Positions 18,767 to 62,276 of a stretch of 64,000 nt of DNA are shown piece after piece. Both the position numbers and the translations under genes were made by a program. Numbering within the stretch: the first letter of the stretch is position 1; every line of letters begins with the position of its first letter. The notes beneath the pieces are model-generated. The model searched no databases and was not told where the DNA came from. It saw only the letters and a program-made list of their open reading frames with translations. Location: the NCBI GenBank assembly GCA_016936575.1, contig JAFGXQ010000045.1:70664-134663 (forward strand). The letters are read 5' to 3'. The stretch is from Deltaproteobacteria bacterium. Lineage in GTDB: Bacteria; Myxococcota_A; Polyangia; JAAYKL01.

Positions 18767-18787
18767 TTAAAATTCGTTTTGCCTCTA

Positions 18788-37440: not shown

Positions 37441-39036
37441 ATGAAAAAAATACTAGCATTTGTATTTGTTGCGGCTTCTGTAGCCATGTTCGCCGTGGGT
37501 TGCGGCCCGAAAAAAAATGGTGGAGATTCGAAACCGGCAGAAGTAAAAGAAGAAGTGACCATCGACCTCTTCGTGATGTCTCAATGCCCCTATGGTGTTC
37601 AAGCAGTTGACGGATTTTATCCGTTACTGGAGAAGTTCGGCGGTCAGGTCGGCCTTAATGTAAATTATATCGGACAGAAAAAACCCGATGGTTCTCTCTC
37701 CAGTATGCACGGAGAAAAAGAAGTTCAGGGTGATATCAGTCAACTCTGCGCCAAAGAGATCGCGCCTTCAAAAAAAGAATACTGGGCATACATGACCTGC
37801 GTGAACGAAAAATGGCGGGAAATCCCCCAACACGATGCAGAATGCGCCACAACCGCCAAACTCGATGCCGCCAAATTCAAAGCATGCACAGAAGGCGAAC
37901 AAGGCAAAAAACTGCTTTCTGCCAGCTTTGACTTGGCCAAAACCAAAGGCGCCACCGGCAGCCCCTCAATCTTCATCGGTGAAGAGCGCTACAGCGGAAA
38001 TCGTTCCGACAAAGCGTTGGAGCAGTACATCTGCAATAAATTCGGCAAAGAAAAAGGTCTGAATTACTGCAATAACATGGAGCCTCCGGCAGAAGTGAAA
38101 CTGATTGCCATCACCGACAAGCGCTGCGGCGCGCCCTGCGACACCAGCAAAATGATCCAGAGCCTCAACGGTATCTTCATGGGCCTCAAACCCACCGTTA
38201 TGGATTGGTCCGACGCAGAAGCACAGAAAATCGCAAAAGCCGCCAATGTTACCAAACTTCCCGCCCTGCTGTTCGACGGCAGTGTTGAAAAAGACGATGG
38301 TGGATTCAAACACATGCAGCGCTGGCTCACCAAAACCGGCGACTACTATTTGGTTAAAGTAAAAGCCGATTTCGACCCCAATGCTGAAATCTGTGACAAC
38401 AAAAAAGATGACACCGGCAACGGTCTGGTCGATTGCGATGACGAGAGCTGCAAAAACACCCTCACCTGCCGTCCCCAGACTGAGAAAACCCTCGAAGTGT
38501 TCGTAATGAGCCAATGCCCCTTCGGCGCCATGGCCGTAAATGCGATGGGCGAGGTTCTCGAGGCATTCGGCAGCGACATGGACTTCCAGCTCCATTTCAT
38601 CGGCAACATGGCCGGGGACAAAATCTCCTCCATGCACGGTCAATCGGAAGTGGATGAAAATATTCGTTGGGCATGTGCGAAAAAACTGTATCCCAACAAC
38701 AACGATTACCTGAAATACGTATGGTGTCGTGCGGAAGACTACAAAAACCCCGATTGGAAAAAATGTGCGACCGGCCCCATCAAGGCCGCCGCCATCGAGA
38801 AATGCTTTAACGAAGAAGGCACTGAGCTGCTGAAAGAAGATATCGCGATTGCCAACGGTCTGGGCATCGGCGCCAGCCCCACCTGGATTGTAAACGGCAC
38901 CACCAAATTCAGCGGTGTAACCCCCAAAGCGATTCAGGACAACTTCTGCAAAGCCAATGCCGGCCTCAAAGGCTGTGATAAACCGCTTTCCAATGATCGC
39001 GCCAGCAAGGCACCGGCCGGTTCCTGTGGCGGTTGA
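37441..39036 (+). CDS. Lipoprotein with two tandem thioredoxin-fold GILT/DsbA-like domains
   Basis: Lipobox FAVGCG. Duplicated module (DLFVMSQCPYGVQAV...SSMHGEKEVQGD...C and EVFVMSQCPFGAMAV...SSMHGQSEVDEN...C). The layout resembles the GILT family (..LVPYGNA...CQHGEEEC..). Confidence 0.4.
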   Translation: MKKILAFVFVAASVAMFAVGCGPKKNGGDSKPAEVKEEVTIDLFVMSQCPYGVQAVDGFYPLLEKFGGQVGLNVNYIGQKKPDGSLSSMHGEKEVQGDISQLCAKEIAPSKKEYWAYMTCVNEKWREIPQHDAECATTAKLDAAKFKACTEGEQGKKLLSASFDLAKTKGATGSPSIFIGEERYSGNRSDKALEQYICNKFGKEKGLNYCNNMEPPAEVKLIAITDKRCGAPCDTSKMIQSLNGIFMGLKPTVMDWSDAEAQKIAKAANVTKLPALLFDGSVEKDDGGFKHMQRWLTKTGDYYLVKVKADFDPNAEICDNKKDDTGNGLVDCDDESCKNTLTCRPQTEKTLEVFVMSQCPFGAMAVNAMGEVLEAFGSDMDFQLHFIGNMAGDKISSMHGQSEVDENIRWACAKKLYPNNNDYLKYVWCRAEDYKNPDWKKCATGPIKAAAIEKCFNEEGTELLKEDIAIANGLGIGASPTWIVNGTTKFSGVTPKAIQDNFCKANAGLKGCDKPLSNDRASKAPAGSCGG

Positions 39037-45820: not shown

Positions 45821-46735
45821 TTGAGTTTCGAACACCTAACTCCAACCGAAGTACCTGAAGCGATCGAATCTATTGCATCTTCTCGCATCATCCGTGCCGG
45901 AGCCGACAGATTACAGGGACAAATCCTGAACGGCAAGTATCGTCTCACATCCATTCTCTCCAAGGGCGGTGCGGGATCGGTGTACCTCGCCAGAAACGTG
46001 GAATCCGGTTCACTCGTTGCCATTAAAATACTTCGTTCCGATCTCAATCTGGTTCCCCGGGTTCGAGAACGGTTCCTGACGGAATCCAGAGCCGCTGCCC
46101 GTATTCGACACCCTGCAGTGGTACACGCCATCGAGTTGGGAGAAACCGCGGAAGGGGCACTCTTTTTCGTAATGGATTACGTTCCCGGCCCCCCACTTCG
46201 CAAGCTGCTGAATAGTCATACACTGACCATACAACAATCTGTTTTGATTGCTGCGGCAACCGCAGAAGGATTGAAAGCAGCTCATACTCAGGATGTTGTA
46301 CACCGCGACTTGAAACCGGAAAACATTTTAATTCCCCGAAACAAAAACGCCGGAAGCGTGGTAAAAATCGTCGATTTCGGCATTGCCAGGCTTCTGAATA
46401 CCCCGCGTATCACCACCACAGAACACATTCTGGGAACACCCAGCTATCTGTCGCCCGAACAGGCCGAAGGCCTAAGCATCGATCGTCGAACAGACATCTA
46501 TTCGCTGGGCATCATCATGTACGAAATGCTGACCGGTAGCGTACCATTTCAGGGCGATACCACCGAAGAACTGCTTGATGCACAGATACGGCGAATTCCC
46601 ACCCCCATACACAATCGAGTATTGAAACCCCTTCCTCACCCCCTTGAACAGCTCGTCATGGGATGTCTGCAGAAAAATCCGGACCACCGCCCCAACAGCA
46701 TGGACGAAGTATTGGCCATTCTTTCGATTGTGTAA
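45821..46735 (+). CDS. Eukaryotic-type Ser/Thr protein kinase (kinase domain only)
   Basis: GGAGSVYLA (Gly loop), AIKIL (VAIK Lys), HRDLKPENILI (catalytic loop), DFGIA (DFG) and SPE-like motifs. Confidence 0.8.
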   Translation: MSFEHLTPTEVPEAIESIASSRIIRAGADRLQGQILNGKYRLTSILSKGGAGSVYLARNVESGSLVAIKILRSDLNLVPRVRERFLTESRAAARIRHPAVVHAIELGETAEGALFFVMDYVPGPPLRKLLNSHTLTIQQSVLIAAATAEGLKAAHTQDVVHRDLKPENILIPRNKNAGSVVKIVDFGIARLLNTPRITTTEHILGTPSYLSPEQAEGLSIDRRTDIYSLGIIMYEMLTGSVPFQGDTTEELLDAQIRRIPTPIHNRVLKPLPHPLEQLVMGCLQKNPDHRPNSMDEVLAILSIV

Positions 46736-46749
46736 TGTTCAAAGCGAAC

Positions 46750-47139
46750 TCATTCGGCGGACTTGTTTAGGATTTGTTCAATTTTTTCTACGTAGGTATT
46801 CAATTCGAAGACCGGCTTTTTCAATACATTGGTGTCCTGGATACCCAATTTTTGCAATGGGGCACTCACTCGATAATCCAATGTTCCGGTTTGGATAAGA
46901 AATTTCATGTGACCGCATATTTCATGTGCAGCCAGCATGAAATCCTCACCATTCATCTCGGGCATACGAATATCGACGACAGCAATATCAAAGCACGCAC
47001 CCGATTTCAGCAATTGCAGTGCGGAAATCGCACTTTCAGCGGTCTGTACTTCAAAGTCGCAGTCTTCTAAATACTGTTCAAGGCTGTCTCGGACAACCGC
47101 TTCGTCGTCCACTACAAGTATGCGTTTTTCTTCTGTCAT
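46750..47139 (-). CDS. Stand-alone response-regulator receiver (CheY-like) domain protein
   Basis: ILVVDDEAVVRDSL..., phospho-acceptor Asp in DIAVVDIRMPEMNG, and the K in VLKKP. Confidence 0.75.
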   Translation of the reverse strand: MTEEKRILVVDDEAVVRDSLEQYLEDCDFEVQTAESAISALQLLKSGACFDIAVVDIRMPEMNGEDFMLAAHEICGHMKFLIQTGTLDYRVSAPLQKLGIQDTNVLKKPVFELNTYVEKIEQILNKSAE

Positions 47140-47201
47140 ATTTTCTCATCCCCCGGATTCGCAATAATCCATTGATTGCGTTTATTTCACATAAATAATC
47201 C

Positions 47202-49667
47202 CTATTTGATACCCAGTCGAATCTCCTGTATCGCACTTTTCAACATGGCCCGCTCCTGTGACGTGGCCGCAGTCATCAGCGCATGTTCCAACACCGGCAA
47301 CGAGGCTGTCGAATCTCGTTGAACCAGTCCGGAAATCGCTAAAAACCGCACATGCATATTTCTATCATTAATAATTCGTGTCTCCAGCGCAACACGCGCG
47401 CGATCGTCCATAATCGGAATCAATTCCTTCACCGCCTTATATCGGACCGTCGCACTTTTCGAATTTGTATAAAAAACCAAATCCTCGACGGTGGTTTTCG
47501 CAACCGACATCGGCACAGTGTATGTGCTTTCCTCTGCGCCCGCGACGCCCGGTTGTGCCTCCGCGCCCGCATGTTGCGACTGTTTCACCGTGGACTTTTC
47601 ACTTATGCGTTCAGCCTGTGTAGCTGCCAATCGTTCCTGCTCAGCAGCGGCACGTTCCTCCCGCTCTCGGCGTTTGGCTTCTTGGGCTTCTTCTCGGGCG
47701 AGGCGCTTGGCCTCCTCAGCCTCTTCACGTGCGATTCGCTTGGCTTCTATCTCTTCTTCCTTTTTCAGCCGCGCCAACTCTTTCTCTCTCTCCCGCTCCT
47801 GACGCGCCAGTTCCTGCTCCGCTTTCTTACGTTCTTTTTCTGCACGGCGCTCTTCCTCTTCGGCTTTCCGTTTCTCTATGGCCGCACGCTTTTGTTCCTC
47901 GCGTTCAAGCCGCTTCTGCTCCGCGAGCGCTTTTTTCTCTTCAGCTTTTCTTCTGGCGTCTTCAGCCTTCTGACGTTTTTCCTCTTCCCGCTGTGCTTTC
48001 AATTCCGCCAGGCGTTGTTTTTCTGCTTCCTTCTTCGCCAGTGCCGCCAGCCGCTGTTCTTCTTTCAGTCGTTCCCTCGCCTCTTGGGCCTTCTGTCTCT
48101 CTGCGGCAGCAACCGCTCGCTCCTCTTCAGCCTTTTTATGTGCGTCTTCGGCAGCGATGCGTTGTTCCTCTTCCAGTCGCTCTTTTTCAGCCAGTTTTTT
48201 GGCTTTGTCCGCCCTTCGCGCGGCTTCCGTCTCTTTCCTTCTGGCTTCTTCCTCTTGTCGCTGCATTTCTTTTTCGCGCGCCGCCGCTTCCGTTGCCAAT
48301 CGGCGCTCTTCAGCTTTCTGTTTTAACTCTTCTTCGCGTTTCGCGTTCGCCTCATCTCGTTTTCGCTTTTCTTCTTCACGCTTCGCTGCGAGCGCCGCTT
48401 TGCGTTCTTCGTCTTCACGCCGCTTTTCTTCAAGCGCGGCCTGTCTTTGTGCGTCCTGTTCCTTTTTTAATGCAAGCTTACGTTCCTTCGCCTCCTCGAC
48501 TTTCCGCATTGCCTCTTCCTGAGCAAAACGTTTCTTTTCAGCACGTTCCTTCTTGGCGGCTTCCAACGCAGCACGCTTTTCTGCAAGTTCCTGTTTTCGT
48601 TTTTCCGCAGCGGCTTCACGCGCCGCAGCGCGCTCTTGACGTTCCGCCTCCCTAGCGAGTTTTCGCTCTTCAGCTTCCTTCTCGCGCTGCTCTTTTTCCA
48701 ACCGTCGTTTTTCAGCTGCCTCGAACGCCGCCTGTTCTTTTTCAGCCTTTTTCTTTTCGGCCTCGGTCATCTCCACCGCAACAGGCTCTTCGATTTGCCC
48801 CGTGTCCGCTTCTGCAACTTTTTGTCCCTCATCCGTCTCGTTCTCCGACGTCCCGTTTTGTTTCGCTTCCTGCTCCTCCTTCATCGAAGGAGGTAGTTCA
48901 TCGGCTTCCTCTTCTCCCCTTCGCTCCGCAAAAATTTCGTCGGCAAGACTCTTATCGGTAACAACATCTTCACCTTTTAAAATAGATTTAATCCGATCTG
49001 TCTCCGCAACGATTCGATACGCCATATCACGGGTGATCTCAGTACCGCCGACGGCCATATATTCCTTGTATTTTTTATACGCCCAATCCCACTGTTTCGC
49101 CTTTGACGCACAAAGCGCCGACTCCAATAACAACGTATAATCCTGATTGTACTGATAGGCTGTATCGTAACTCTTGTACGCGGTTACATAGTCTTCTATT
49201 TCAATGGCTTCTTCCGCTTCAATCACCGCCACCGTTGAGCGAAGCCACTGGCCCGCCACGCTTGCGCCGACGACATCTCCGTCAGCGGCATCAATTCGTT
49301 CGATTTCCCCGCGCAGCGATTCAGTCTGCGTCTTGTCCAGCTTCTTGGAATCCACCAATGCCTGGTACCGCTTTCTGGCTTCTTTGTAGTCTTTGGCTAA
49401 AAACGCAAAATGAGCCAATGCGATTTCATACTTGATGAGAGGCTCTTTCTGACTGGCCGCGGTTACTTCAGCGACCGCACCGTCAAAGTCACGCGCCTGC
49501 GCCTTCTCGAGCCCCAAACGCCAATGGGCAGTTGCGGACATTGTGGAGTCCACCGATTGAACCGGAACATTCTGTTTGGAGCATCCCCATACGAAGAAAC
49601 ATACACACACAACAAATATCAACCGTACATTTGATTTCTCGCGCAATCCCATTTTGGACTCCTTCAC
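47202..49667 (-). CDS. Lipoprotein/membrane-anchored protein with a TPR-like N-terminal region, a ~470-aa E/K/R/A-rich single-alpha-helix-like segment and C-terminal HEAT/PBS-type repeats
   Basis: Signal plus lipobox FVWGCS. Helical repeat region with W/Y-containing pairs. Then KKKAEKEQAAFEAAEKRRLEKEQREKEAEERKLAREAER... for about 470 residues. C-terminal ATVRYKAVKELIPIMDDRARVALETRIINDRNMHVRFLAISGL. Confidence 0.6.
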   Translation of the reverse strand: MKESKMGLREKSNVRLIFVVCVCFFVWGCSKQNVPVQSVDSTMSATAHWRLGLEKAQARDFDGAVAEVTAASQKEPLIKYEIALAHFAFLAKDYKEARKRYQALVDSKKLDKTQTESLRGEIERIDAADGDVVGASVAGQWLRSTVAVIEAEEAIEIEDYVTAYKSYDTAYQYNQDYTLLLESALCASKAKQWDWAYKKYKEYMAVGGTEITRDMAYRIVAETDRIKSILKGEDVVTDKSLADEIFAERRGEEEADELPPSMKEEQEAKQNGTSENETDEGQKVAEADTGQIEEPVAVEMTEAEKKKAEKEQAAFEAAEKRRLEKEQREKEAEERKLAREAERQERAAAREAAAEKRKQELAEKRAALEAAKKERAEKKRFAQEEAMRKVEEAKERKLALKKEQDAQRQAALEEKRREDEERKAALAAKREEEKRKRDEANAKREEELKQKAEERRLATEAAAREKEMQRQEEEARRKETEAARRADKAKKLAEKERLEEEQRIAAEDAHKKAEEERAVAAAERQKAQEARERLKEEQRLAALAKKEAEKQRLAELKAQREEEKRQKAEDARRKAEEKKALAEQKRLEREEQKRAAIEKRKAEEEERRAEKERKKAEQELARQEREREKELARLKKEEEIEAKRIAREEAEEAKRLAREEAQEAKRREREERAAAEQERLAATQAERISEKSTVKQSQHAGAEAQPGVAGAEESTYTVPMSVAKTTVEDLVFYTNSKSATVRYKAVKELIPIMDDRARVALETRIINDRNMHVRFLAISGLVQRDSTASLPVLEHALMTAATSQERAMLKSAIQEIRLGIK

Positions 49668-49757
49668 ATACTAAAAACGATTTAATGAATCTTAGTATAG
49701 CACAACACCCAGCGCACCCCAACGCGGGAGAACGCAAAGCACGACACTTTTTTCATT

Positions 49758-50111
49758 CTACTTTGAAAGGTAATCCTGAAGGGCCCGGAACTGCGCTTCC
49801 AGCTCTCCCACCAGCTCAGACACAATACCCAATTCGCCATTCTTTCCAGCCTTTTCAATTTCGTAGGCAATTTGACGCATTCGCAACGCGGACACGTTGC
49901 TAGACGCCCCTTTGATAGTGTGCCCCTGGCGCACAATCTGGTCCTGATCACCACTGGACTGCGCATGTTTCAATGTTTCAATCTGATGAGGTGTATCCTC
50001 GAGATATACACTGACCACTTCGCTCACCAATTCCTCGTCATCACACAACCGCGAAAGAAGCGCTTCCTTGTCAAAAATTTTTGTATCGGTAATATTTGTC
50101 ATTTCTATCAT
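49758..50111 (-). CDS. Histidine phosphotransfer (Hpt) domain protein
   Basis: HTIKGASSNVSALRM motif (H-x-x-KG-x-S). Small helical protein. Start placed at the internal MIEM. Confidence 0.65.
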   Translation of the reverse strand: MIEMTNITDTKIFDKEALLSRLCDDEELVSEVVSVYLEDTPHQIETLKHAQSSGDQDQIVRQGHTIKGASSNVSALRMRQIAYEIEKAGKNGELGIVSELVGELEAQFRALQDYLSK

Positions 50112-50252
50112 TTTTCCCCCCAAGTGAACGACGAATGTACAAATTTTCAACACCGGTTCACCGTATAAAGATACTATCGCCCTGCTGTAATGCAAGCCCT
50201 GAACCCACAGGGGAATCGGTCAAAACAGCTGATATCGATACAATCTCAATAG

Positions 50253-52121
50253 TTACTGCATGTTAGCGTGTACCGTCGAATCCATGACCGGTTCTAATTG
50301 ATAGTCGAACAACACCGGTTTTCTTCCGTCGCTCTTGATGGTTTCGCTGACTGTCGCCAAAATCGCCTGGTGCGACTCTGTTGCTTTCCCCGAGTCAATC
50401 AGTGCCGCAACCTCAGATACCCGAGCACCGTAAATGGATGTCAACAGCACCTGCAGATAGGATTGTACCGAATTGAAAAACGGTACCGGATAAAACGCCA
50501 GTTGTTTGGCTTGGGCATTATAAACCATCCCGTGTCCGGCGAAACCGATTTCGAGTAACTTCTTGCATACCTGCTGTTCCTCCTTATTCGATGAAGCTGT
50601 GCCGCTTAGCCACCGCGCTGCCAATGCAATCCCCCGTTCTGAGACTCCCGCATCATCAATTCGTCCCATCTCCCGCTCCATAGACACAATCCATGCCGTC
50701 GTCACCTGCACAAGAATCGAAATCAACTGCGACCATTGCTTTCGATACAACTGTTTCAAACCAATCTGCTTGCCATTCTCTGTGTCAATCACTGTCCACT
50801 CCGCAGGCAACAGTGATGATGCCAGCTCTTGCGACACTCGATTCAACAGCGCCGAATCCACACTCAGCACCACTAGGGGCATCACCGTATTCAGGGAACG
50901 GGCATCCTCCTCCAACTGTGCACTAAAACGGTTCAAATCAACAATGACCTTTTCAGCAGGCAGATGCCCCACAGAGTGAATATGCCGAACAGCCGACAAG
51001 TCGCTGAAGCGAGCATGCCCCGCCGCAATCCAAGTATCTCGAACTTCAATCGACGGAATCATCGGTTTTCCCTTGTTCAGTGGCATATTTTCCGAATGCA
51101 TCGCAGTCAGCGAATCGTACAGCTCCTCGTAATGTGCCGTAAACCAATCGGTGAATTCATTCGCGGGAAGATACGGTCTGGCCAGTTGAAACTCAAACGC
51201 TTGCTTCACACCGTAGACATCAAGATCCGTCTCGAACGCACCGAAAAGAATCCGCCACGGACCGGCCTTCCCGTCCAACACCCGCTGGTCAATACCGAAC
51301 GTGTCGATATTTCCCTCCCCGGTAATTTGAGAAAGAACCGACAGAAGTTCTCGATCCGTTCGCGCAACCATAGACGCCGCATCTGAAAAAAGCCGTGACA
51401 ACGCTGCGAAGAATTCCTTGAATCTAGGATGTGCAACGTATGAAGAAACCGTCAGTCTGCCGTTGTCTCGTTCAACCAATCCGAACGGGCTGAGCAGCTC
51501 CTTTGAATTGATCAGAGTAGACAGGTTTTCAAATTCCCGCGACGTGAAGTCCATGGGCCAAAATATCGTCCCGGTATTTCGGGGTGGAATCGAGGCGACA
51601 GCATTGCATTGAAGCGCTTTAGAGAACCGACACCATGGCCCGGCATATCGATCAAATATCGCCCGCTCTACCGGTTCACCGGATTTCCGCAGTTGTTCTT
51701 CCCATATCAGATTGGAACTGTTTACCTGAAGTTTATAGATGTCGTCCACTACCTTTGCCGCCTGCTGCATGACCTGCAACAGCGGTTGCGCGGACGCAAC
51801 TGTCTCGAGAGAATGTGTGATGGTGCGAACATCCGCCGATTCAAGTTCGTGCTGCAGCATTTGAAAGCGCTCCCGGGACTGCTCAGTATCCAGGGCTATA
51901 TTCTCTCGCGCAGAATCAATATTTTTTTTTGTTGAAGGCGACGCTTGAAACAAAGTGTCATCCTCAACCAAACGACGCGGTTCCGTTTTTCCCGGCACCG
52001 CATCGGGAATTCTCTCCTCTGCGAAAAAATTGCAGCTGCTCAACGCAACAACAATAAGCAATGAAAAAAACAAGAGCGCGTTCGATTTCAATCGGCCTGG
52101 ATACATCATCTTGGACAGCAT
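50253..52121 (-). CDS. Hypothetical lipoprotein (~620 aa)
   Basis: Internal start MLSKMMYPGRLKSNALLFFSLLIVVALSSC (signal plus lipobox). No recognisable catalytic motif. Confidence 0.4.
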   Translation of the reverse strand: MLSKMMYPGRLKSNALLFFSLLIVVALSSCNFFAEERIPDAVPGKTEPRRLVEDDTLFQASPSTKKNIDSARENIALDTEQSRERFQMLQHELESADVRTITHSLETVASAQPLLQVMQQAAKVVDDIYKLQVNSSNLIWEEQLRKSGEPVERAIFDRYAGPWCRFSKALQCNAVASIPPRNTGTIFWPMDFTSREFENLSTLINSKELLSPFGLVERDNGRLTVSSYVAHPRFKEFFAALSRLFSDAASMVARTDRELLSVLSQITGEGNIDTFGIDQRVLDGKAGPWRILFGAFETDLDVYGVKQAFEFQLARPYLPANEFTDWFTAHYEELYDSLTAMHSENMPLNKGKPMIPSIEVRDTWIAAGHARFSDLSAVRHIHSVGHLPAEKVIVDLNRFSAQLEEDARSLNTVMPLVVLSVDSALLNRVSQELASSLLPAEWTVIDTENGKQIGLKQLYRKQWSQLISILVQVTTAWIVSMEREMGRIDDAGVSERGIALAARWLSGTASSNKEEQQVCKKLLEIGFAGHGMVYNAQAKQLAFYPVPFFNSVQSYLQVLLTSIYGARVSEVAALIDSGKATESHQAILATVSETIKSDGRKPVLFDYQLEPVMDSTVHANMQ

Positions 52122-52394: not shown

Positions 52395-53150
52395 CTAAAG
52401 CAAAAACGGTATGACCGCTTTGCGTTCAGCGGGGTATTCGGGGAATGTATTTTTGTACCACTTATGATTGGAGATTGCGCGAGGGATCAGGTTCGCTGCG
52501 GTGAACACGGCGAATGCCGCACCCGCCGGGCTCCAGGTAAGAATGGCGAAGCCGCACCATTCCACCAACTCTCCGAAATACGCAGGCATCGAAACGAATC
52601 GAAACAATCCGCCGTAAGGTATTTTGTAGCCGGACTCTCCCGGCGCACGTAGCCGAATCAGAATATTGTCGCTCTGACGATTGATGAACATCCCAACAAA
52701 AAAAATTGCCGTGCCGACTATAAACGGAATACTGTACAGCCAACTGATGTCACGTACCGGCCCCACAAAAAAAAGCCACGCACCGTTCAGAAATCCATTC
52801 CATACATTAAAAAACATGGCCATCGCCACGACGGAAACCGGCATCTTTCGGTTGTTTCCTTTTCGCTTAAACGGAAACACGTAGGTGCGATACATATAAT
52901 GCGTTTGCCAAATCAGCAAACAAACCACCACCGTCACATTGTTGAGCCTATCGCTGAACAGATACATCAGCGTGATGGTCAGCACCGCCGGCGACTCCAT
53001 GACCACCCACCCCACCGTGCTTGAAATCAGCGGTCCCCACCCGTTTCTCGAAAACCTCCCATACGGTGCGGTGACAAACCGCAGCATGATTGCCACCAAT
53101 GCCGCAATACCCAGCAGCGACCACAACAAGACCGTGAACAGCTGTTCCAT
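52395..53150 (-). CDS. 3-oxo-5-alpha-steroid 4-dehydrogenase (steroid 5-alpha-reductase/ICMT-like) family membrane protein
   Basis: C-terminal YKIPYGGLFRFVSMPAYFGELVEW and ...KWYKNTFPEYPAERKAVIPF match the family signature. Multi-TM. Confidence 0.6.
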   Translation of the reverse strand: MEQLFTVLLWSLLGIAALVAIMLRFVTAPYGRFSRNGWGPLISSTVGWVVMESPAVLTITLMYLFSDRLNNVTVVVCLLIWQTHYMYRTYVFPFKRKGNNRKMPVSVVAMAMFFNVWNGFLNGAWLFFVGPVRDISWLYSIPFIVGTAIFFVGMFINRQSDNILIRLRAPGESGYKIPYGGLFRFVSMPAYFGELVEWCGFAILTWSPAGAAFAVFTAANLIPRAISNHKWYKNTFPEYPAERKAVIPFLL

Positions 53151-53154
53151 CAAG

Positions 53155-54135
53155 TTATCCTTTCTGCGACCGATGCCACGCCACCGTATCGGCAATCGTC
53201 TCTTCAAACGCCCTCGGCGTGATTCCTAACATCGTTTTCATTTTGTCGCTAGACAGGTTACCGTGCGTATGCAATGCGCGAACGGACTCCCGGGTAAAAA
53301 CCGGCGTTCTGCCCATCAGATTCGCAAAACCTTCATAAACCGGCGCAGTGAGGCGTGCCAGCCACAATGGACACACAAACCACGGCACCGGCACTTGGGA
53401 AACGGCGCAAACCGCAGCGGCAAATTGCGACACACTGCGATAATGCCCTCCGACAATAAATACACTTCCGGTTTCAGCCACATCGACCGCACGAAGCATT
53501 ACCCGCGCAACGTCGCGGACATCCACCCAGTTGGAACCGCCTGCAACCAACGCTCCCATACGACGTGACATCAACTGCCGGACCACACCTCCGAGCGACG
53601 ATGGCTTGTGATCTGACGGCCCCACAACTCCGGTCGGACACACCACCACTGCATGCGTCCCCTCTGATGCGGCCTGCAGGATGATTTTCTGAGCCGCCGC
53701 TTTGCTGCGATCGTACATGGGAGCACGGGAATCTGAGACGAGCGGAGACAACTCATTCAACACCTCATCCTGAGTGTCTGCGAACGCGTGAATCGTGCTG
53801 CAATAAACCAGCTTCAGCTGTTTATGCGATCGGCACGCATCCACCACGGTCCGGGTTCCCTCCACATTCACCCGCCACATCCGCGCTGTGTCATTTTCCT
53901 GTAGAGGTAACACGCCCGCCAAATGAAACACGGCGTCGGAACCGGAAAATGCCTCGATTAGAAAATCAACGTCCAGAATGTCTCCATATTTCACCTGAAT
54001 GGGCAATGCAGATACATACGGTGTTTCTTTGCGCAACAGGGCGACGACTTCCCAATTGTTATCGAGTAAATGCCGAATCAGATTGATTCCGATATGGCCG
54101 GCCGCACCGGTGACTACCGCTTTCATGCCTGCCAT
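53155..54135 (-). CDS. NAD(P)-dependent epimerase/dehydratase (extended SDR) family protein
   Basis: N-terminal VTGAAGHIGINL Rossmann motif. Catalytic YDRSK (Y-x-x-x-K). About 326 aa. Confidence 0.65.
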   Translation of the reverse strand: MAGMKAVVTGAAGHIGINLIRHLLDNNWEVVALLRKETPYVSALPIQVKYGDILDVDFLIEAFSGSDAVFHLAGVLPLQENDTARMWRVNVEGTRTVVDACRSHKQLKLVYCSTIHAFADTQDEVLNELSPLVSDSRAPMYDRSKAAAQKIILQAASEGTHAVVVCPTGVVGPSDHKPSSLGGVVRQLMSRRMGALVAGGSNWVDVRDVARVMLRAVDVAETGSVFIVGGHYRSVSQFAAAVCAVSQVPVPWFVCPLWLARLTAPVYEGFANLMGRTPVFTRESVRALHTHGNLSSDKMKTMLGITPRAFEETIADTVAWHRSQKG

Positions 54136-54469
54136 TGTAGAGGGAAACCCGATAAGAGGGCAAAAAAAAATCCTCCAAAGTGCCGTAGGTTAAGCGGTGA
54201 CCCGCTGACGCTGCAAGTGGGTTCCATATCGCTGCTTAAGGCTTCCAATCGAATGGCTTGCACACCGCAACGAGAGCTGAATCCCTATTTTCTGGTACAG
54301 CTGGGTCACATATCGCAGCGTTACGTACACTTCAGAGGACTCACACTATAAATTTGGCCACAGAATCGGTTTTGCGCAAGCGCAAAAAAGACTCATTTTT
54401 TTTCGGTGCCAAGTAGTATCGGAACCTTGAATGCTGTACATATTTGAATGTTTTGATAAAAGGCGGATC

Positions 54470-58195: not shown

Positions 58196-58945
58196 TCAGA
58201 TACCTGAACCGTCGGTGAAATTCATGCCGCAATAGGCAGGGCCGGTTCGTTCTCCCTCGCGTAGATGACGCCAACGCCCCGCGCGAGCATCTTCTCCGGG
58301 CAACACCGGGGTGGTGCAGCAGCCGCATCCGATACTCGGATACCCCAGCGCGTGCAGGGAATGTACAGGTACATGGTGTTTGAGCAGATAGGCATCGATG
58401 TCTTCCTGGCTCCAATCTACAAGAGGGTAAACCGAATACCCTGAAAAGCGCGGATCCTCAGCAACAACCTCGATGCTCCCCCTTGCCTGCCCTTCCGCCC
58501 TGCGAAGTCCCCCCACAACAGCCGTTTTCTTCTGTTGTTTCATGTATCGCAGAAACGGTTTGCCTTTGCGCAAATCGCAGCACACGGGCTGACCCTCACT
58601 GGTCTTGAATAATTTGCAGCGATACTGTTCTTCCTGCTGCTCCGGGGTAAGCGTCGGGTACAATGTGACAATCGGCAGCGCGTAACTTTCAATAAATTGA
58701 TCGCGCAGTAGCAGCGTTTCATGAAAATGATACCCTGTATCTACAAACAGAATTTTATTCTTCAACCCCAATGTATGAAACATATGCATTAAAACCGAAG
58801 CGGTTTTTTGCATACTGGAAAGGAGCACCAGCCCGTCACCGAACTGTTCCACCGCGAACGAAATCCGTCCCGCAGCATCTCGCTCTTCCATCGATGTATT
58901 CATTTGTTTCAGATTCAGCGTCATCTGCGTTGTCCAACCATCCAA
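58196..58945 (-). CDS. cysH: Phosphoadenylyl-sulfate/adenylyl-sulfate reductase (CysH family, Fe-S cluster type)
   Basis: PAPS-reductase fold (ILFVDTGYHFHETL), and the C-terminal GYPSIGCGCCTTPVLPGEDARAGRW block characteristic of bacterial APS-reductase-type CysH (CC...C-x-x-C). Confidence 0.7.
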   Translation of the reverse strand: MDGWTTQMTLNLKQMNTSMEERDAAGRISFAVEQFGDGLVLLSSMQKTASVLMHMFHTLGLKNKILFVDTGYHFHETLLLRDQFIESYALPIVTLYPTLTPEQQEEQYRCKLFKTSEGQPVCCDLRKGKPFLRYMKQQKKTAVVGGLRRAEGQARGSIEVVAEDPRFSGYSVYPLVDWSQEDIDAYLLKHHVPVHSLHALGYPSIGCGCCTTPVLPGEDARAGRWRHLREGERTGPAYCGMNFTDGSGI

Positions 58946-60724
58946 TTACGAATCGAGTTTCACACACCCGATTCGAGAAAGTCGCTTCATGGAAATCGCC
59001 TGTGTCGGGCACACACGGAGACATTTTCCACAGCGAATGCAATCCTGATTATCAATATATATAAAGGTGGTATCTTTTGACAGCTCCGCTTCAAACACTT
59101 TGGTGGGAAACCCGTCGTCATCGCAATAAATCTGTGCCGCCTTTTTGATACACTCCCTTGGCGCCGCCTGGATACACCAATCGCAATGGATACATAAATC
59201 CTGATCGATTTCAAACTTGTACTGACACAGATAACATCTGGTCGCGGCCACTTGCGCAATCTCAGGGGTAAACCCAGTCTCCACCTCTGCCTGGTTTTCA
59301 AATCGCCCCACTACATCAAGCATCGGCATCGGAAGCGCCCACTGGATGTCGTGGTCCCGAAATCGTCCGGTTTCTCCATCACAATCAGTGGTTTCCACCC
59401 GCACCCCCTCCACGTAGCGCGTTTGTCCCATCAGATGCGTGTCCACCACTTGCGCGGTCTTCTTCCCGGATGCCACCGCGGTAATCACGTCGGCACTGGT
59501 TCCCTCAAAATCTCCTGTGGCGAACAAATTCTCCTTCGAAGTACGAATTCCATCGAGTTCAATACCGTTTGGCAAAATGCGTGGATCGGACCGCTGCCCA
59601 ATAGCCAGAATCAACACGTCACAAGGAATCTCAACTTCGCTTTCATTCAGAGTTTCGATTGCCGGCTTGCGACGAGTATCGCCCGCCTTCACCACGTTGC
59701 GCTCACAAACGAGTATTCCTCGGGAACCGTCTGTTTTCCATCGTTTGGGAGACAGCAGCGTACGCACAGCCACGTCTTCTTCGCGCATGGCTTTGAATTC
59801 ATTTTTGTCAGCCGCCATGGAAGCTTCTGTCCGCCGATACACAATGGATACCGCGGAATCCGCAGAAACCAAACGCCGTGCGGCGCGGGCACAATCCACT
59901 GCAGTGAACCCGCCGCCGACAACTACCACATTGCCCGACAGCGCGGGCAGTTCCCCCCGATTGTAGCGTTTCATGAAGTCAAGACCGGTAAATCGTTGTG
60001 TCTCATCATCACCCACGCCGTCAATGGTTGTCTGATTACTTAGGGTTGTACCGGTGGCAACAATTACCGCATCGTTCTCTTCAATCAGGATGCTCATTTC
60101 AGACGCGCCGACCGCGCATCCGGTCTGAATGGTCACTCCTCCGTCCTGAATGAGCGCGATTTCCGCAGCTACAATGTCTCGGGGCAATCGAAACGCGGGA
60201 ATCCCGTCCACCAGCATACCCCCGGGAAGGGGTTCCTTCTCCAGTACGGTCACTTGATGTCCCAACCGATTCAACTCCCGCGCCGCAGTGAGTCCGGCGG
60301 GCCCAGCCCCCACGATGGTCACCTTCTTGCCGGAGGGTCCAAAATGGGGCGCCAACGGCGTCTGAGTGTTTGCGATGTGATCCGCCGCATACCGCTTGAG
60401 ATGACAAATCTGAACCGGTCCTTCCACATTCGTCCAATTGTGGCGACACTCGTCTTCACACACCCGTGTACAGATTCGTCCAAGAACACCGGGAAACACG
60501 TTGTCTTCCAGATTGATGCGATACGCCGCGTCATGTTCCCCTCTGGCAATGTGTTCAATGTACCCGGGCACATTGGTTTTGGCCGGGCACGCTTCCTGAC
60601 ACGGTATCGCTTTGCCAATCGTTTTCAAATCAAGCGGGGATGTCCCCACACCGGTCTGCACCGAATTCTCTTTGGGCTTTTGCGCTTTTTGATATTCAAA
60701 TCTCACCGTACACCGCCTTTTCAA
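58946..60724 (-). CDS. GltD-like FAD/NAD(P)H oxidoreductase with N-terminal Fe-S region and C-terminal 2x[4Fe-4S] ferredoxin domain (likely electron donor to sulfite reductase)
   Basis: N-terminal Cys clusters (AIPCQEACPAKTNVP...GRICTRVCEDEC). Two dinucleotide folds (VTIVGAGPAGLTAA; VVVVGGGFTAVDCA). C-terminal CIHCDWC...CIRCGKCLRVCP. Confidence 0.6.
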   Translation of the reverse strand: MKRRCTVRFEYQKAQKPKENSVQTGVGTSPLDLKTIGKAIPCQEACPAKTNVPGYIEHIARGEHDAAYRINLEDNVFPGVLGRICTRVCEDECRHNWTNVEGPVQICHLKRYAADHIANTQTPLAPHFGPSGKKVTIVGAGPAGLTAARELNRLGHQVTVLEKEPLPGGMLVDGIPAFRLPRDIVAAEIALIQDGGVTIQTGCAVGASEMSILIEENDAVIVATGTTLSNQTTIDGVGDDETQRFTGLDFMKRYNRGELPALSGNVVVVGGGFTAVDCARAARRLVSADSAVSIVYRRTEASMAADKNEFKAMREEDVAVRTLLSPKRWKTDGSRGILVCERNVVKAGDTRRKPAIETLNESEVEIPCDVLILAIGQRSDPRILPNGIELDGIRTSKENLFATGDFEGTSADVITAVASGKKTAQVVDTHLMGQTRYVEGVRVETTDCDGETGRFRDHDIQWALPMPMLDVVGRFENQAEVETGFTPEIAQVAATRCYLCQYKFEIDQDLCIHCDWCIQAAPRECIKKAAQIYCDDDGFPTKVFEAELSKDTTFIYIDNQDCIRCGKCLRVCPTQAISMKRLSRIGCVKLDS

Positions 60725-62276
60725 AATAACCGAGCCCCACCCGATTCACACAGTCGGTCAAAAATTCATCAGATATGCGTACCGCGACAAACGCATTCAG
60801 CACCAATCGCAGCATCTCCTCGCAATCACTCAATTTAAATTCTCCCAACTTCTGTCCAAAGGCAGTCTGCGAACCGCCGAGCAGAACTTCGTACCCTTCC
60901 ACAGAACCGGACTCTTCCCGAATGCGCATGCCCCGAAAGCCGATATCGGCAATACGGTAAGGTGAACACGAGTTGGGGCAACCGGTGATATTGATGACAC
61001 CGCTTTGCGCAATCGATTCATATCGAGGCTCTCCGACCACGCGCTGCACAATATCAAACAATGCCCGCGTCTGAGTGACCGCCTTGGGGCAATACGTGGT
61101 CCCCACACAACTGACAATATCACTGAGAGTGAAGCTGCCGGACGTTTGATACCCCAATGCACGGATTTCGCTCTCCAACGCTTTCACATCGCTCGGCGCA
61201 ACCCCCTGAAACTGCAGATTCTGCCGATTAGATGTGTATACCCGCTGATTGGCATATCGCTCCGACAACTCGGCCATCCGGTAAAATGTCGAAAAAGAAA
61301 GCTCCCCTTTGGGAACAATCACCCGCACCGTGTGCTGTCCATCTGTCCCTTGTGGGGAATCGTCGAGAAGCGGCCGCAGTGAGAACGGAACGCCTTCATC
61401 TGTGACTGGTTCAACGATGATATCATCCGAGGACACATTTTCTGTATGCAGATTACTTATTACTTCCGTTCGGCAGAAATCGATGCCCTTGCGATGCACC
61501 ACAAATTTCAGACGCGACTTGGCGCGATTGAACCGATCTCCATGCTCTCGAAACAGTATCGCCACCGCACGACACACCTGTTTTACTTTGTTGTGCGGCA
61601 CGAAACCGAACAGTGATTCGGCCACGAACGGCTTCCACCCCATACCGCCGCCGATAACCACCTTATACCCCGGAACACCGTTGTGAATGACACCGGAAAG
61701 CCCCACACAGTTGATATGGGGTTGGGCGCAATCGGCACCACACCCCGAAAAATTTATTTTAAACTTTCGAGGCAGATCATCCAGGTCGCGGCACATACCC
61801 AAAAACTCAGCCATCTCAACCGCCGCAGCGCGGGCATCCAATCGTCGGTACGCGCAAGTTTCCGCCAATGGGCACGCGGTCACGTTGCGAGTCACATCGC
61901 CGCAACCGTGTTTGGTCGAGTTCCCGTATTCACCCAGCTCCCGAAGCATGTCTGCCAGGTTTCCCACCTTCAGCCAATGAAACTGCAGCGCCTGCCGTGT
62001 GGTCACATTCACAATACCCTGCCCGTATTTCTCGGCAATTCCGGCGATATTCTTGGCCTGGGCACTGGTAATCACGCCTCCGGGAATCACAATTCGCGCC
62101 ATATGATTTCCCGGCTGTCTGCTTTTGTAAATACCGTACCACTTTGCAATACTGCTGTCGTCCGCCTGCATGGCCCCTTTTTTGGCCATCTCATCAAAAT
62201 CCAGGAAGAGGCCGGCGGCCTTGATATCTTCGTCTTCACTACGACGAGTGAACGTCAGTTTTTTAGGCATTGCCAC
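60696..62276 (-). CDS. Assimilatory sulfite/nitrite reductase haemoprotein (sirohaem-[4Fe-4S], CysI/Sir family)
   Basis: Two NIR_SIR ferredoxin-like halves, plus the sirohaem-cluster Cys motif TGCPNSCSP...C. Confidence 0.65.
   Translation of the reverse strand: MAMPKKLTFTRRSEDEDIKAAGLFLDFDEMAKKGAMQADDSSIAKWYGIYKSRQPGNHMARIVIPGGVITSAQAKNIAGIAEKYGQGIVNVTTRQALQFHWLKVGNLADMLRELGEYGNSTKHGCGDVTRNVTACPLAETCAYRRLDARAAAVEMAEFLGMCRDLDDLPRKFKINFSGCGADCAQPHINCVGLSGVIHNGVPGYKVVIGGGMGWKPFVAESLFGFVPHNKVKQVCRAVAILFREHGDRFNRAKSRLKFVVHRKGIDFCRTEVISNLHTENVSSDDIIVEPVTDEGVPFSLRPLLDDSPQGTDGQHTVRVIVPKGELSFSTFYRMAELSERYANQRVYTSNRQNLQFQGVAPSDVKALESEIRALGYQTSGSFTLSDIVSCVGTTYCPKAVTQTRALFDIVQRVVGEPRYESIAQSGVINITGCPNSCSPYRIADIGFRGMRIREESGSVEGYEVLLGGSQTAFGQKLGEFKLSDCEEMLRLVLNAFVAVRISDEFLTDCVNRVGLGYFEKAVYGEI

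What the first reader, a model, noticed from the sequence alone, without database searches (positions are those of the whole stretch)
45821..50111. Signalling island (Ser/Thr kinase, receiver, Hpt) flanking an 821-aa protein with a ~470-residue E/K/R-rich single-alpha-helix-like rod
The 47202..49667 product has a lipoprotein-type signal, a TPR-like region, an unusually long stretch of alternating (E/K/R/A)-rich heptad-less sequence typical of stable single alpha-helices (ER/K motif), and a C-terminal HEAT/PBS-type repeat. If fully helical, 470 residues would span about 70 nm, a molecular ruler or spacer much longer than the periplasm. It is wedged between an Hpt protein (convergent), a stand-alone receiver and a eukaryotic-type kinase, suggesting a regulatory or cytoskeletal role. 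The DNA of this segment is itself low-complexity (GAA/AAG/CGC-rich). All plus-strand ORFs over it are artefacts.
Basis: partly seen in the sequence, partly recalled or inferred. Interest (0 to 1): 0.5.

Follow-up and report, generated by a model that had tools for sequence, protein, structure and literature searches.

The report
Lipoprotein with very long charged-helix spacer
The gene encodes a rare, uncharacterised bacterial envelope lipoprotein whose two small protein-binding domains are held apart by a roughly 390-residue, highly charged single helix, and its gene is always found next to signalling genes, but this is a new variation on known envelope-spanning tether proteins rather than a new kind of system.

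Summary
The genes are a kinase (45821-46735, +), a receiver (46750-47139, -), a large protein (47202-49652, -) and an Hpt (49758-50111, -).

Corrections:
- The protein is 816 aa, starting at ATG 49652.
- The charged rod is about 390-405 residues, not 470.
- Hpt is co-directional and upstream. The convergent gene is the kinase.

The protein has five parts:
- a lipoprotein signal with a family-invariant Cys;
- a disordered acidic linker;
- a Gly/Pro-free E/K/R/A helix;
- a HEAT_2 domain.

The rod has no hydrophobic heptad. It has a strong 7-residue charge periodicity, with opposite charges at i±3/4. That is a single-alpha-helix pattern, not a coiled coil. It is not a repeat collapse.

The family is rare, with about 28 confident relatives among 1.84 billion representative proteins. 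Its end domains are conserved. The spacer ranges from almost nothing (Pro/Glu-rich in some members) to 405 residues, as in TolA/TonB domain II. This fits a flexible reach element better than a fixed ruler.

An orthologous kinase-only Ser/Thr kinase lies convergent to the gene in 9 of 11 loci. Hpt and receiver flank it only in the long-rod clade.

Best reading: an extracytoplasmic tether or reach lipoprotein. Its link to signalling is inferred from gene order only.

The parts
47202..49652 (-). Gene for the 816-aa rod lipoprotein (NCBI MAG protein JXX29_04925). The mechanical ORF extends to GTG 49667, giving 821 aa. Residue numbers below use the 821-aa numbering.
   Evidence: ORF. AAGGAG lies 7 nt before ATG 49652. 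P0001 is 100% identical over 816 aa. Seven homologues at 41-52% identity share the same architecture.
49581..49652 (-). Lipoprotein-type signal peptide, MGLREKSNVRLIFVVCVCFFVWG|C. The lipidation Cys (Cys29, or Cys24 of the 816-aa form) is encoded at 49581-49583.
   Evidence: The Cys is invariant in alignments A1 and A6. The signal has a K/R n-region and a 13-residue h-region, with G at -1. A PS51257-like rule written from memory passes 13 of 20 family members. The window's own sequence fails only because of W at -2.
48882..49580 (-). N-terminal all-helical TPR-fold domain (residues 30-262). It is 234 aa in every close homologue.
48882..48965 (-). The most conserved motif of the family, VVTxKSLADEI[F/Y]AERxGEEExDxLPPSM (residues 235-262). 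It lies at the end of the TPR domain in a region modelled with low confidence. It is a candidate short linear binding motif.
   Evidence: Invariant columns K239 to M262 in A1. The motif is retained in distant members as SLADx[IV]YxER...PPS. pLDDT is 36-62.
48771..48881 (-). Acidic, Gly/Pro/Ser/Thr-containing disordered linker (residues 263-299).
   Evidence: pLDDT is below 50 for residues 250-316. Net charge is about -9 to -11 per 40 residues. Identity is 27% and length is 6-37 aa among homologues.
47598..48770 (-). E/K/R/A-rich rod (residues 300-690, 391 aa). Composition is E 27.6%, A 22%, R 16%, K 15%, and LIVMF 9%. It lies within a 405-residue Gly/Pro-free run.
   Evidence: Composition and charge pairs. 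No hydrophobic heptad. Charge period 6.75, z 9.8. AF2 helices 302-495 and 502-683 have pLDDT 70-77. No tandem DNA repeat.
47496..47597 (-). Second disordered linker (residues 691-724).
   Evidence: pLDDT is below 50 for residues 676-724. Identity among homologues is 20%.
47205..47495 (-). C-terminal HEAT_2-type repeat domain (residues 725-821; six short helices).
   Evidence: Pfam PF13646 at 1.2e-6 and 29.1 bits on the isolated domain, and 7 of 7 homologues match. The PDB profile hit is YibA, 1oyz, at 3.2e-5. Mean identity is 76% and length is fixed at 96-99 aa.
49758..50111 (-). Stand-alone Hpt protein (117 aa). It is upstream of the rod gene and co-directional with it. The phospho-His lies in GHTIKGAS.
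   Evidence: Pfam Hpt at 4.5e-14. The start is ATG 50111, after GGGGG. It occupies the same position in L001, L003, L004, L006 and L007.
46750..47139 (-). Stand-alone receiver domain (129 aa), 62 nt downstream of the rod gene on the same strand. The acceptor Asp lies in VVDIRMP.
   Evidence: Pfam Response_reg at 8.9e-15. Its position is conserved in six genomes.
45821..46735 (+). Ser/Thr protein kinase consisting of the kinase domain only (304 aa, no signal peptide or membrane segment). It is convergent, with its stop 14 nt from the receiver stop.
   Evidence: Pkinase at 4e-51. Orthologues at 46-71% identity have the same length and orientation next to rod-family genes in 9 of 11 loci.
50253..52109 (-). 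Upstream lipoprotein of about 618 aa, distantly related to dipeptidyl-peptidase III (M49). It has no conserved His motif. It is a conserved neighbour whose relation to the rod protein is unknown.
   Evidence: Invariant lipobox Cys in A4. The profile hits PDB 6eom at 3e-9 and 5zum at 2.7e-5. The NCBI record is 618 aa. M49-like genes lie 2-3 kb upstream in L010 and L012.

Best explanation
The product is an exported, lipid-anchored envelope protein built as a tether. A TPR protein-binding domain sits next to the lipid anchor. A small HEAT-repeat protein-binding domain sits at the far end. Between them is a spacer made of two disordered linkers and a 390-residue, highly charged helix.

The helix is most probably a monomeric single alpha-helix, stabilised by Glu-Lys/Arg pairs at i+3 and i+4, and not a coiled coil. 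The spacer supplies reach and mechanical compliance, not a defined sequence or a fixed length. It therefore works like domain II of TolA/TonB or the linkers of LpoA/LpoB/RcsF. It lets a membrane-anchored protein engage a partner tens of nanometres away, either across the envelope or along it.

What is shown: the domain anatomy, the charge pattern, the absence of a hydrophobic seam, the conservation of the end domains, the variability of the spacer, and the gene neighbourhood.

What is inferred: export and lipidation, a monomeric helical state, which membrane holds the anchor, the partners, and any functional link to the neighbouring kinase, Hpt and receiver genes.
For: Signal and topology:
- The Cys is invariant, is preceded by a K/R n-region and a 12-15-residue h-region, and usually has G/S/A at -1.
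- The organism is diderm: FadL-type and LolA-like proteins are encoded in the window.

End domains:
- The N-terminal domain has a TPR fold.
- The C-terminal domain is HEAT_2.
- The end domains keep fixed lengths (234 and about 97 aa) and 66-76% identity. The linkers show 20-27% identity, and the rod is 139-391 aa long.
- In distant members the spacer shrinks to 25-100 charged residues, or is replaced by EP/AP-rich segments (P0013, P0021). Signal, TPR domain, SLADxxYxER motif and HEAT domain all remain.

Rod properties:
- 60% E/K/R/D and 22% Ala, with no Gly or Pro for 405 residues.
- i±3/4 opposite charges are enriched (z 6.6) and like charges depleted (z -6.9).
- Charge autocorrelation is -0.28 and -0.25 at lags 3 and 4, and +0.36 at lag 7. 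The spectral peak is at 6.75 residues, z 9.8.
- Hydrophobic residues show no 3.5-residue periodicity (z -0.8), and a/d occupancy equals shuffles.
- These are the sequence features used to define SAH domains (PMC4183817).
- AF2 predicts helix with pLDDT 70-77.

Precedent: TolA/TonB spacers likewise vary between helical and Pro-rich forms, and in length (PMC12204202).
Against: - No signal-peptide predictor could be run. The window's own lipobox (V-W-G-C) is atypical at position -2.
- A straight 58-nm helix is about twice the usual periplasmic width (general knowledge). A simple perpendicular span is therefore not the whole story.
- AF2 breaks the helix at 496-501, and the alignments used were shallow (7-8 sequences).
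- The SAH-type charge pairing is strong in this protein (z 6.6) but weaker in close homologues (z 0.3-3.3) and near random in several distant ones. The monomeric-helix property may not hold across the family.
- All conserved neighbours with a recognisable function (kinase, Hpt, receiver) are cytoplasmic. This is unexpected for an exported protein.
- No partner or phenotype is known.
Confidence: 0.5

Rival explanations
1. A cytoplasmic or membrane-proximal scaffold for the adjacent signalling proteins. In this reading the N-terminal hydrophobic segment is only a membrane anchor. The TPR and HEAT domains recruit the kinase-only Ser/Thr kinase, the Hpt and the receiver, and the rod spaces them apart.
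For: - The orthologous kinase lies next to the gene in 9 of 11 loci, across 25-35% protein identity.
- Hpt and receiver flank the gene on the same strand, with gaps of about 100 and 62 nt, in six genomes.
- TPR and HEAT repeats are common scaffolds.
- The kinase has no localisation domain of its own.
Against: - The invariant Cys directly follows a 12-15-residue hydrophobic stretch with [G/S/A] at -1. This is the lipoprotein signal pattern, and the stretch is too short for a membrane helix.
- Positive charges precede the hydrophobic segment, so even an uncleaved anchor would place the rest of the protein outside.
- The upstream neighbour is also a predicted lipoprotein.
- Convergent genes are not co-transcribed.
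Confidence: 0.15
2. The rod is a canonical parallel dimeric or trimeric coiled coil, or an intramolecular antiparallel hairpin. The protein would then be an oligomeric fibre, as with Lpp or the trimeric models proposed for TolA.
For: - Charge has a 7-residue period, which coiled coils can also show.
- 22% Ala could in principle pack as an Ala-rich core.
- AF2 splits the rod into two helices of about 190 residues.
- There is weak self-similarity at offset 192.
Against: - LIVMF make up only 9% of the rod.
- There is no 3.5- or 3.67-residue hydrophobic periodicity, with or without Ala (z between -1.0 and 0.8).
- Best-register a/d occupancy is 0.21 (0.51 with Ala), identical to shuffles.
- The AF2 break has pLDDT below 50 and contains no Gly or Pro.
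- The offset-192 signal only equals the best of 300 shuffles.
Confidence: 0.12
3. The charged segment is an intrinsically disordered polyampholyte that acts as an entropic linker or brush, not a stable helix.
For: - Composition is low-complexity and hydrophobic content is low.
- Length and sequence evolve quickly, and some relatives have clearly disordered Pro-rich linkers in its place.
- AF2 confidence is only 70-77.
- SAH regions are known to be cross-predicted as disordered (PMC5302728).
Against: - A 405-residue run without Gly or Pro, combined with 22% Ala.
- Non-random i±3/4 opposite-charge pairing and a 7-residue charge period. A purely entropic linker would not need either.
- The rod aligns at 43% identity among close homologues, against 15% expected from composition alone.
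Confidence: 0.18
4. An artefact: an assembly collapse of a repeat, or a spurious ORF in purine-rich DNA.
For: The DNA is compositionally biased (AT skew down to -0.73). Long antisense ORFs exist over the same region.
Against: - Only one 15-nt tandem repeat is found, and the dispersed repeats are only weak, at 64-83% identity.
- An identical protein is present in NCBI and Logan assemblies.
- Orthologues with conserved flanking domains occur in at least ten other loci.
- The antisense ORFs have no family match.
Confidence: 0.01

Closest known systems
TolA / TonB periplasmic force transducers (domain II)
   Same: Both have a membrane-anchored N-terminus, a long periplasmic spacer and a C-terminal globular domain of about 100 residues. 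In both families the spacer is Ala/Lys/Glu-rich and helical in some lineages, Pro-rich or disordered in others, and highly variable in length (PMC12204202; compare).
   Different: The anchor here is a lipobox Cys, not a transmembrane helix with the SHLS motif. A 234-residue TPR domain follows the anchor. The C-terminal domain is HEAT_2, not TonB_C/TolA_C (no such Pfam hit). No TolQR/ExbBD-type motor genes were seen among the ORFs scanned in the window.
Eukaryotic ER/K single alpha-helix (SAH) domains (myosin-10, myosin-6, CAF-1 KER and others)
   Same: Both are rich in Glu, Lys and Arg, show enriched i±3 and i±4 opposite-charge pairs, lack a hydrophobic seam, and sit between two functional domains (PMC4183817).
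   Different: The rod here is about four times longer than the 97-residue myosin-10 SAH. It contains more Ala (22%) and has a lower charged fraction (60%, against 65-83%). It is bacterial and predicted to be extracytoplasmic. Its monomeric state is untested.
Outer-membrane lipoproteins that reach across the periplasm (RcsF, LpoA, LpoB, Lpp)
   Same: These are lipid-anchored proteins whose reach matters for function. LpoA has a TPR-like N-terminal domain (from memory). RcsF must span the periplasm to trigger a His-Asp phosphorelay that includes an Hpt step (PMC5771553). Here the gene lies between Hpt and receiver genes.
   Different: There is no sequence or fold relationship to RcsF, LpoB or Lpp. 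The spacer is a charged helix of about 390 residues, not a short disordered linker or a 56-residue trimeric coiled coil. No sensor kinase is encoded nearby.
TPR lipoproteins and periplasmic TPR proteins (BamD, PilF/Tgl pilotins, CpoB/YbgF)
   Same: The N-terminal domain has a TPR fold and sits directly after a lipoprotein signal. BamD, PilF and YbgF are among the structural matches.
   Different: Those proteins end after the TPR domain, or in CpoB carry a short coiled coil. None has the rod plus a HEAT domain. Sequence similarity is only at the generic TPR level.

Membership tests
Single alpha-helix (ER/K, CSAH) domain | High Glu/Lys/Arg content | tested here: met
   E+K+R is 59% (60% with D) over 391 residues. 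This is slightly below the 65-83% quoted for myosin-10 (PMC4183817).
Single alpha-helix (ER/K, CSAH) domain | Enriched (i, i±3) and (i, i±4) opposite-charge pairs, with a charge period of about 6-9 residues | tested here: met
   0.514 pairs per residue against 0.365 in shuffles, z 6.6. Spectral peak at 6.75 residues, z 9.8, reached by 0 of 500 shuffles. Lag-3/4 autocorrelation is -0.28 and -0.25.
Single alpha-helix (ER/K, CSAH) domain | Monomeric, highly helical in isolation, with non-cooperative melting | not testable with these tools
   Needs CD, AUC or SEC-MALS on residues 300-690. AF2 predicts helix with pLDDT 70-77.
Coiled coil | Hydrophobic residues at heptad a/d positions (3.5-residue periodicity) | tested here: not met
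   z is -0.8 for LIVMF and -0.1 with Ala at period 3.5. Best-register a/d occupancy is 0.21 (0.51 with Ala), equal to shuffles.
Bacterial lipoprotein | Signal peptide ending in a lipobox [LVI][ASTVI][GAS]C with a conserved Cys | tested here: inconclusive
   The Cys is invariant in 17 sequences, and 13 of 20 members pass a PS51257-like rule. The window's VWGC fails only at position -2. The rule was written from memory, and SignalP/LipoP are not available.
TPR repeat domain | Stacked helix-turn-helix repeats with a TPR fold | tested here: met
TPR repeat domain | Pfam TPR models at or above the gathering score | tested here: not met
   The best results are TPR_11 at 8e-4, TPR_19 at 1.2e-3 and TPR_2 at 0.015. 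All are below their cutoffs.
HEAT_2 / PBS-lyase-type HEAT repeats | Pfam PF13646 at or above the gathering score | tested here: met
   The isolated C-terminal domain scores 29.1 bits against a cutoff of 27.7, and all 7 members match. There is no hit when the full-length protein is scanned. The PDB profile hit is YibA at 3.2e-5.
TolA / TonB | N-terminal transmembrane helix with the SHLS motif, and a TonB_C/TolA_C C-terminal domain | tested here: not met
   The N-terminus is a short signal ending in Cys, with no S-H-L-S motif. The C-terminal domain is HEAT_2, and no TonB/TolA family is hit.
His-Asp phosphorelay modules (the neighbouring genes) | Hpt with a conserved His in HxxKG, and a receiver with an acceptor Asp | tested here: met
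   Pfam Hpt at 4.5e-14 and Response_reg at 8.9e-15. GHTIKGAS and VVDIRMP are conserved in L006 and L007.
His-Asp phosphorelay modules (the neighbouring genes) | A cognate (hybrid) histidine kinase encoded in the locus | tested here: not met
   None was found among the window ORFs scanned. One relative has a hybrid kinase 4 kb upstream (L004).

The most novel reading that the evidence does not exclude
The rod lipoprotein is the envelope-side sensor of a signalling pathway that works like RcsF. In this reading the protein is anchored in the outer membrane. Its very long, spring-like single helix lets the HEAT domain touch an inner-membrane signalling partner only when envelope geometry or tension changes. 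The signal then passes to the co-located Hpt and receiver and to the conserved kinase-only Ser/Thr kinase.

If true, this would be the first natural use of an ER/K-type single helix as a periplasmic distance or force sensor. It would also be a conserved coupling between an envelope lipoprotein and a eukaryotic-type kinase.
Probability: 0.12. Interest if true: 0.75.

Novelty: new variant of a known kind. Interest (0 to 1): 0.42.

Why it matters
If the rod is a monomeric single alpha-helix of about 390 residues, it would be among the longest such elements known. It would also show that bacteria use the ER/K design outside the cytoplasm.

The family is a natural experiment. The two end domains stay constant while the spacer varies from nothing to 405 residues, and from helical to Pro-rich. 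That makes it a good system for asking how reach and compliance of envelope tethers are set, a question so far studied mainly with engineered Lpp, RcsF and TolA/TonB variants.

The conserved pairing with a kinase-only Ser/Thr kinase gives a concrete, testable lead to the function of both proteins in an uncultivated Myxococcota-related lineage. The same holds for the Hpt and receiver pairing in the long-rod clade.

Without experiments it remains an uncharacterised protein with an unusual but explicable architecture.

Tried and rejected
- Pfam and NCBIfam scans of the full-length protein found nothing. Only the isolated C-terminal domain reaches the HEAT_2 threshold.
- An exact-sequence look-up of the 821-aa form failed because the real start is 5 codons downstream.
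- A PDB profile search with the full-length alignment found nothing significant: FixL at 0.24 and klebicin at 0.82.
- Tandem-repeat and dispersed-repeat searches on the DNA found only weak low-complexity matches, so a repeat collapse was rejected.
- Internal duplication of the rod was considered. Self-similarity at offset 192 is 0.307, equal to the best of 300 shuffles, and the Smith-Waterman z is 2.4. It is not convincing.
- A period-11 hydrophobic signal (z 3.3) was judged not significant after 65 tests.
- Two metagenome scans gave nothing and then two short loci. The genome scan gave 3 loci. A C-domain profile search found only fragments. Synteny statistics therefore rest on 11 loci.
- The word-based search with the upstream 651-aa protein found only itself.
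- The afdb50 fold library was unavailable.
- The promoter and terminator scan was no better than shuffles, so operon structure is not established.
They are not relied on.
- Literature searches found no description of this family.

Full report
**1. What is in the sequence**

The ORF list confirms four genes:
- a plus-strand kinase ORF at 45821-46735;
- minus-strand ORFs at 46750-47139 (129 aa), 47202-49667 (821 aa) and 49758-50195.

Pfam identifies the three neighbours as Pkinase (4e-51), Response_reg (8.9e-15) and Hpt (4.5e-14). The large protein matches nothing in Pfam or NCBIfam when scanned whole.

Reading the DNA fixes two starts:
- An AAGGAG lies 7 nt before ATG 49652, so the protein is 816 aa. 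This agrees with the identical NCBI record, MAG Deltaproteobacteria bacterium JXX29_04925.
- Hpt starts at ATG 50111 after a G-run, giving 117 aa. Homologues are 99-118 aa.

Hpt, the large gene and the receiver all lie on the minus strand, in that order, with gaps of about 100 and 62 nt. The kinase is the convergent gene, and its stop lies 14 nt from the receiver stop.

**2. Anatomy of the protein (821-aa numbering)**

- *Signal:* MGLREKSNVRLIFVVCVCFFVWG-C.
- *Residues 30-262:* an all-helical domain.
- *Residues 263-299:* an acidic linker containing Gly and Pro.
- *Residues 300-690:* a rod with E 27.6%, A 22%, R 16%, K 15%, Q 6% and L 6%. It lies inside a 405-residue stretch (296-700) with no Gly or Pro.
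- *Residues 691-724:* a second linker.
- *Residues 725-821:* a small helical domain.

The rod is thus about 390-405 residues, not about 470. At 0.15 nm per residue that is 58-61 nm if straight.

AlphaFold2 on an 8-sequence alignment gives the following:
- pLDDT of about 90 for residues 41-200;
- disorder at 250-316 and 676-724;
- helices at 302-495 and 502-683, with pLDDT 70-77;
- six short helices at 727-818, with pLDDT 70-80.

The isolated C-terminal domain reaches the HEAT_2 gathering score (29.1 against 27.7 bits) in all seven homologues. Its profile finds the HEAT-like E. coli protein YibA at 3e-5.

**3. Single helix, coiled coil, disorder or artefact?**

*Hydrophobic pattern.* LIVMF make up 9% of the rod. 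They show no 3.5- or 3.67-residue periodicity (z -0.8 and -1.0; with Ala, -0.1 and -0.6). The best heptad register places hydrophobic residues at a/d positions no more often than in shuffled sequence. A canonical coiled coil is therefore not supported.

*Charge pattern.* Charges are strongly ordered.
- Opposite charges at i+3/i+4 occur at 0.514 per residue, against 0.365 in shuffles (z 6.6). Like charges are depleted (z -6.9).
- Charge autocorrelation is -0.28 and -0.25 at lags 3 and 4, and +0.36 at lag 7.
- The charge spectrum peaks at 6.75 residues (z 9.8), and no shuffle out of 500 reaches it.

These are the sequence properties by which SAH domains are described (PMC4183817). The sequence is 'heptad-less' in hydrophobic residues only.

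*Not an artefact.* At the DNA level there is only one 15-nt tandem repeat and only weak dispersed similarity. The sequence recurs in an independent assembly. It is therefore not a repeat collapse. The long plus-strand ORFs are antisense to purine-rich codons (72% purine) and match no family.

*Limits.* Monomeric helicity cannot be shown here. A disordered polyampholyte remains a live alternative.

**4. The family**

A word-based search found seven homologues at 41-52% identity with the same architecture.

An exhaustive profile search with the N-terminal domain found only 59 proteins at E below 1e-3, and 28 below 1e-10, among 1.84 billion representatives. About twenty of them have one N-terminal copy of the domain.

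Every complete one that I read has the same layout (17 sequences in A6):
- a signal ending in the family-invariant Cys, usually ...GC-GG;
- the TPR domain;
- the motif SLADx[IV]YxER...PPS;
- a low-complexity spacer;
- the HEAT domain.

Within the close clade the regions differ sharply in conservation:

| Region | Length among homologues | Mean pairwise identity |
|---|---|---|
| N-terminal domain | 234 aa | 66% |
| C-terminal domain | 96-99 aa | 76% |
| Linkers | variable | 20-27% |
| Rod | 139-391 aa | 43% (15% expected from composition) |

In distant members the charged helix is 25-106 residues in most and about 250-330 in P0019. In P0013 and P0021 it is absent and replaced by (E/D)P- or AP-rich segments.

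The window's protein has the longest rod and the strongest SAH-type charge pairing. Close relatives give z 0.3-3.3, and several distant ones are near random.

So the spacer is selected for being a spacer. It is not selected for one length, and across the family it is not necessarily a perfect SAH. This is the behaviour recently documented for domain II of TolA and TonB (PMC12204202).

**5. Location**

The h-regions are 12-15 residues long, which is too short for a membrane helix. They follow a K/R-containing n-region and end in [G/S/A]-Cys. A PROSITE-like lipoprotein rule that I wrote from memory passes 13 of 20 members. The window's own VWGC misses only at position -2.

No member has Asp at +2. 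Under the E. coli sorting rule (established knowledge, and possibly different in this lineage) this would favour the outer membrane.

The window also encodes FadL-type and LolA-like proteins, so the organism is diderm.

Export as a lipoprotein is therefore the best reading. It argues against a cytoplasmic or cytoskeletal role. It was not tested with a dedicated predictor.

**6. Neighbourhood**

Six genomes share the same order: DPP III-like lipoprotein, Hpt, rod gene, receiver, convergent kinase, then methylmalonyl-CoA mutase. These are the window, L001, L003, L004, L006 (labelled Polyangia) and L007.

In distant members Hpt and receiver are absent. The kinase is again the immediate convergent neighbour in L009, L010 and L011, is one gene away in L008, and is absent only in the rod-less L012.

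The kinases are orthologues:
- identity of 46-71%;
- all about 300 aa;
- kinase domain only;
- a shared PRITTTxH[VI]xGTP activation segment.

A DPP III-like gene also recurs 2-3 kb upstream in L010 and L012.

No histidine kinase is present among the window ORFs I scanned. The promoter and terminator scan is uninformative.

The association with signalling genes is thus real at the level of gene order. Its deepest component is the kinase, not Hpt or the receiver. All these neighbours are cytoplasmic, so any functional link to an exported protein would have to be indirect. This step is inference only.

**7. Most likely mechanism**

The protein is a lipid-anchored tether with a peptide-binding TPR module at the membrane and a HEAT module at the end of a long, compliant, mostly helical spacer. 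The spacer allows contact with a partner far from the anchor point.

A 58-nm rod exceeds the usual periplasmic width. It would have to lie obliquely or along the envelope, bend, or extend beyond it. Together with the variable length, this argues against a strict ruler.

My confidences are:
- about 0.5 for this reading;
- 0.15 for a cytoplasmic scaffold;
- 0.12 for a coiled coil;
- 0.18 for a disordered linker, which differs only in the physical state of the spacer;
- 0.01 for an artefact.

**8. Comparison and novelty**

It works like TolA/TonB domain II and like the reach lipoproteins RcsF, LpoA and LpoB (PMC5771553). It is not a member of any of these families:
- there is no SHLS transmembrane helix;
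- there is no TonB_C domain;
- there is no similarity to RcsF or Lpp.

The rod resembles eukaryotic ER/K helices in pattern, but it is longer and richer in Ala.

The components are all known kinds. The combination and the family are undescribed in the libraries and papers I could search.

I rate it a new variant of a known kind, of moderate interest.

The most novel reading not excluded is an RcsF-like envelope sensor that uses an SAH spring and feeds the neighbouring Hpt, receiver and kinase. I give it a probability of about 0.12.

Noticed in passing
window 54168-54341 (-): A full-length 6S (SsrS) RNA gene: Rfam RF00013, 84.4 bits against a gathering score of 46.4.
   Followed up: no
window 50253-52109 (-): The gene upstream of Hpt encodes a predicted lipoprotein of about 618 aa with an invariant lipobox Cys. 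It is distantly related to dipeptidyl-peptidase III (PDB 6eom at 3e-9, 5zum at 2.7e-5). No conserved His or zinc motif appears in a 5-sequence alignment, so it is probably non-catalytic. It evolves fast (25-27% identity) yet keeps its position next to the rod gene.
   Followed up: partly
window 48882-48965 (-), residues 235-262 of the rod protein: The most conserved stretch of the whole family is VVTxKSLADEI[F/Y]AERxGEEExDxLPPSM. It lies outside the confidently folded TPR core (pLDDT 36-62). It looks like a short linear binding motif, possibly a ligand for a TPR groove.
   Followed up: partly
window 45821-46735 (+) and loci L008-L011: The kinase-only Ser/Thr kinase forms a deeply conserved tail-to-tail gene pair with the rod-lipoprotein gene: 9 of 11 loci, with 46-71% kinase identity. 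In the window and in L010 it is followed by the methylmalonyl-CoA mutase genes.
   Followed up: yes
window residues 496-501 of the rod (about 48165-48182): AlphaFold2 breaks the rod here into two helices of about 190 residues, although there is no Gly or Pro at the break. There is weak self-similarity at offset 192 (0.307, equal to the best of 300 shuffles). This may reflect an old internal duplication or a modelling artefact.
   Followed up: partly
window 52395-53207 (-) and 53155-54135 (-): A steroid 5-alpha-reductase-like membrane protein (Steroid_dh, 2.4e-53) lies next to a 3-beta-HSD/epimerase-family protein. The former is also syntenic in relatives. This may indicate sterol or polyprenol modification.
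   Followed up: no
window 33449-34414 (+), 9039-12095 (-), 37441-39036 (+): Proteins with eukaryote-like repeats or domains: an RCC1-repeat protein, a 1018-aa TIG/Kelch protein, and a GILT plus DsbA/thioredoxin fusion.
   Followed up: no
window 17348-20560 (-), 30024-31103 (-), 58196-62276 (-): Several sulfur-related genes are scattered through the window: two arylsulfotransferase-like proteins, a sulfotransferase, a PAPS reductase, and a sulfite/nitrite reductase with an adjacent flavoprotein.
   Followed up: no
locus L004 1669-3309 (+): In one relative a PAS-HisKA-HATPase-receiver hybrid histidine kinase lies about 4 kb upstream of the Hpt-rod-receiver block. It is a candidate input for the orphan Hpt and receiver. 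No such gene was seen in the window.
   Followed up: partly
locus L008 5781-6881 (-): In the distant member P0019 the single gene between the rod gene and the kinase encodes a 366-aa protein with a weak HEAT_2 match (1e-4, below threshold).
   Followed up: no
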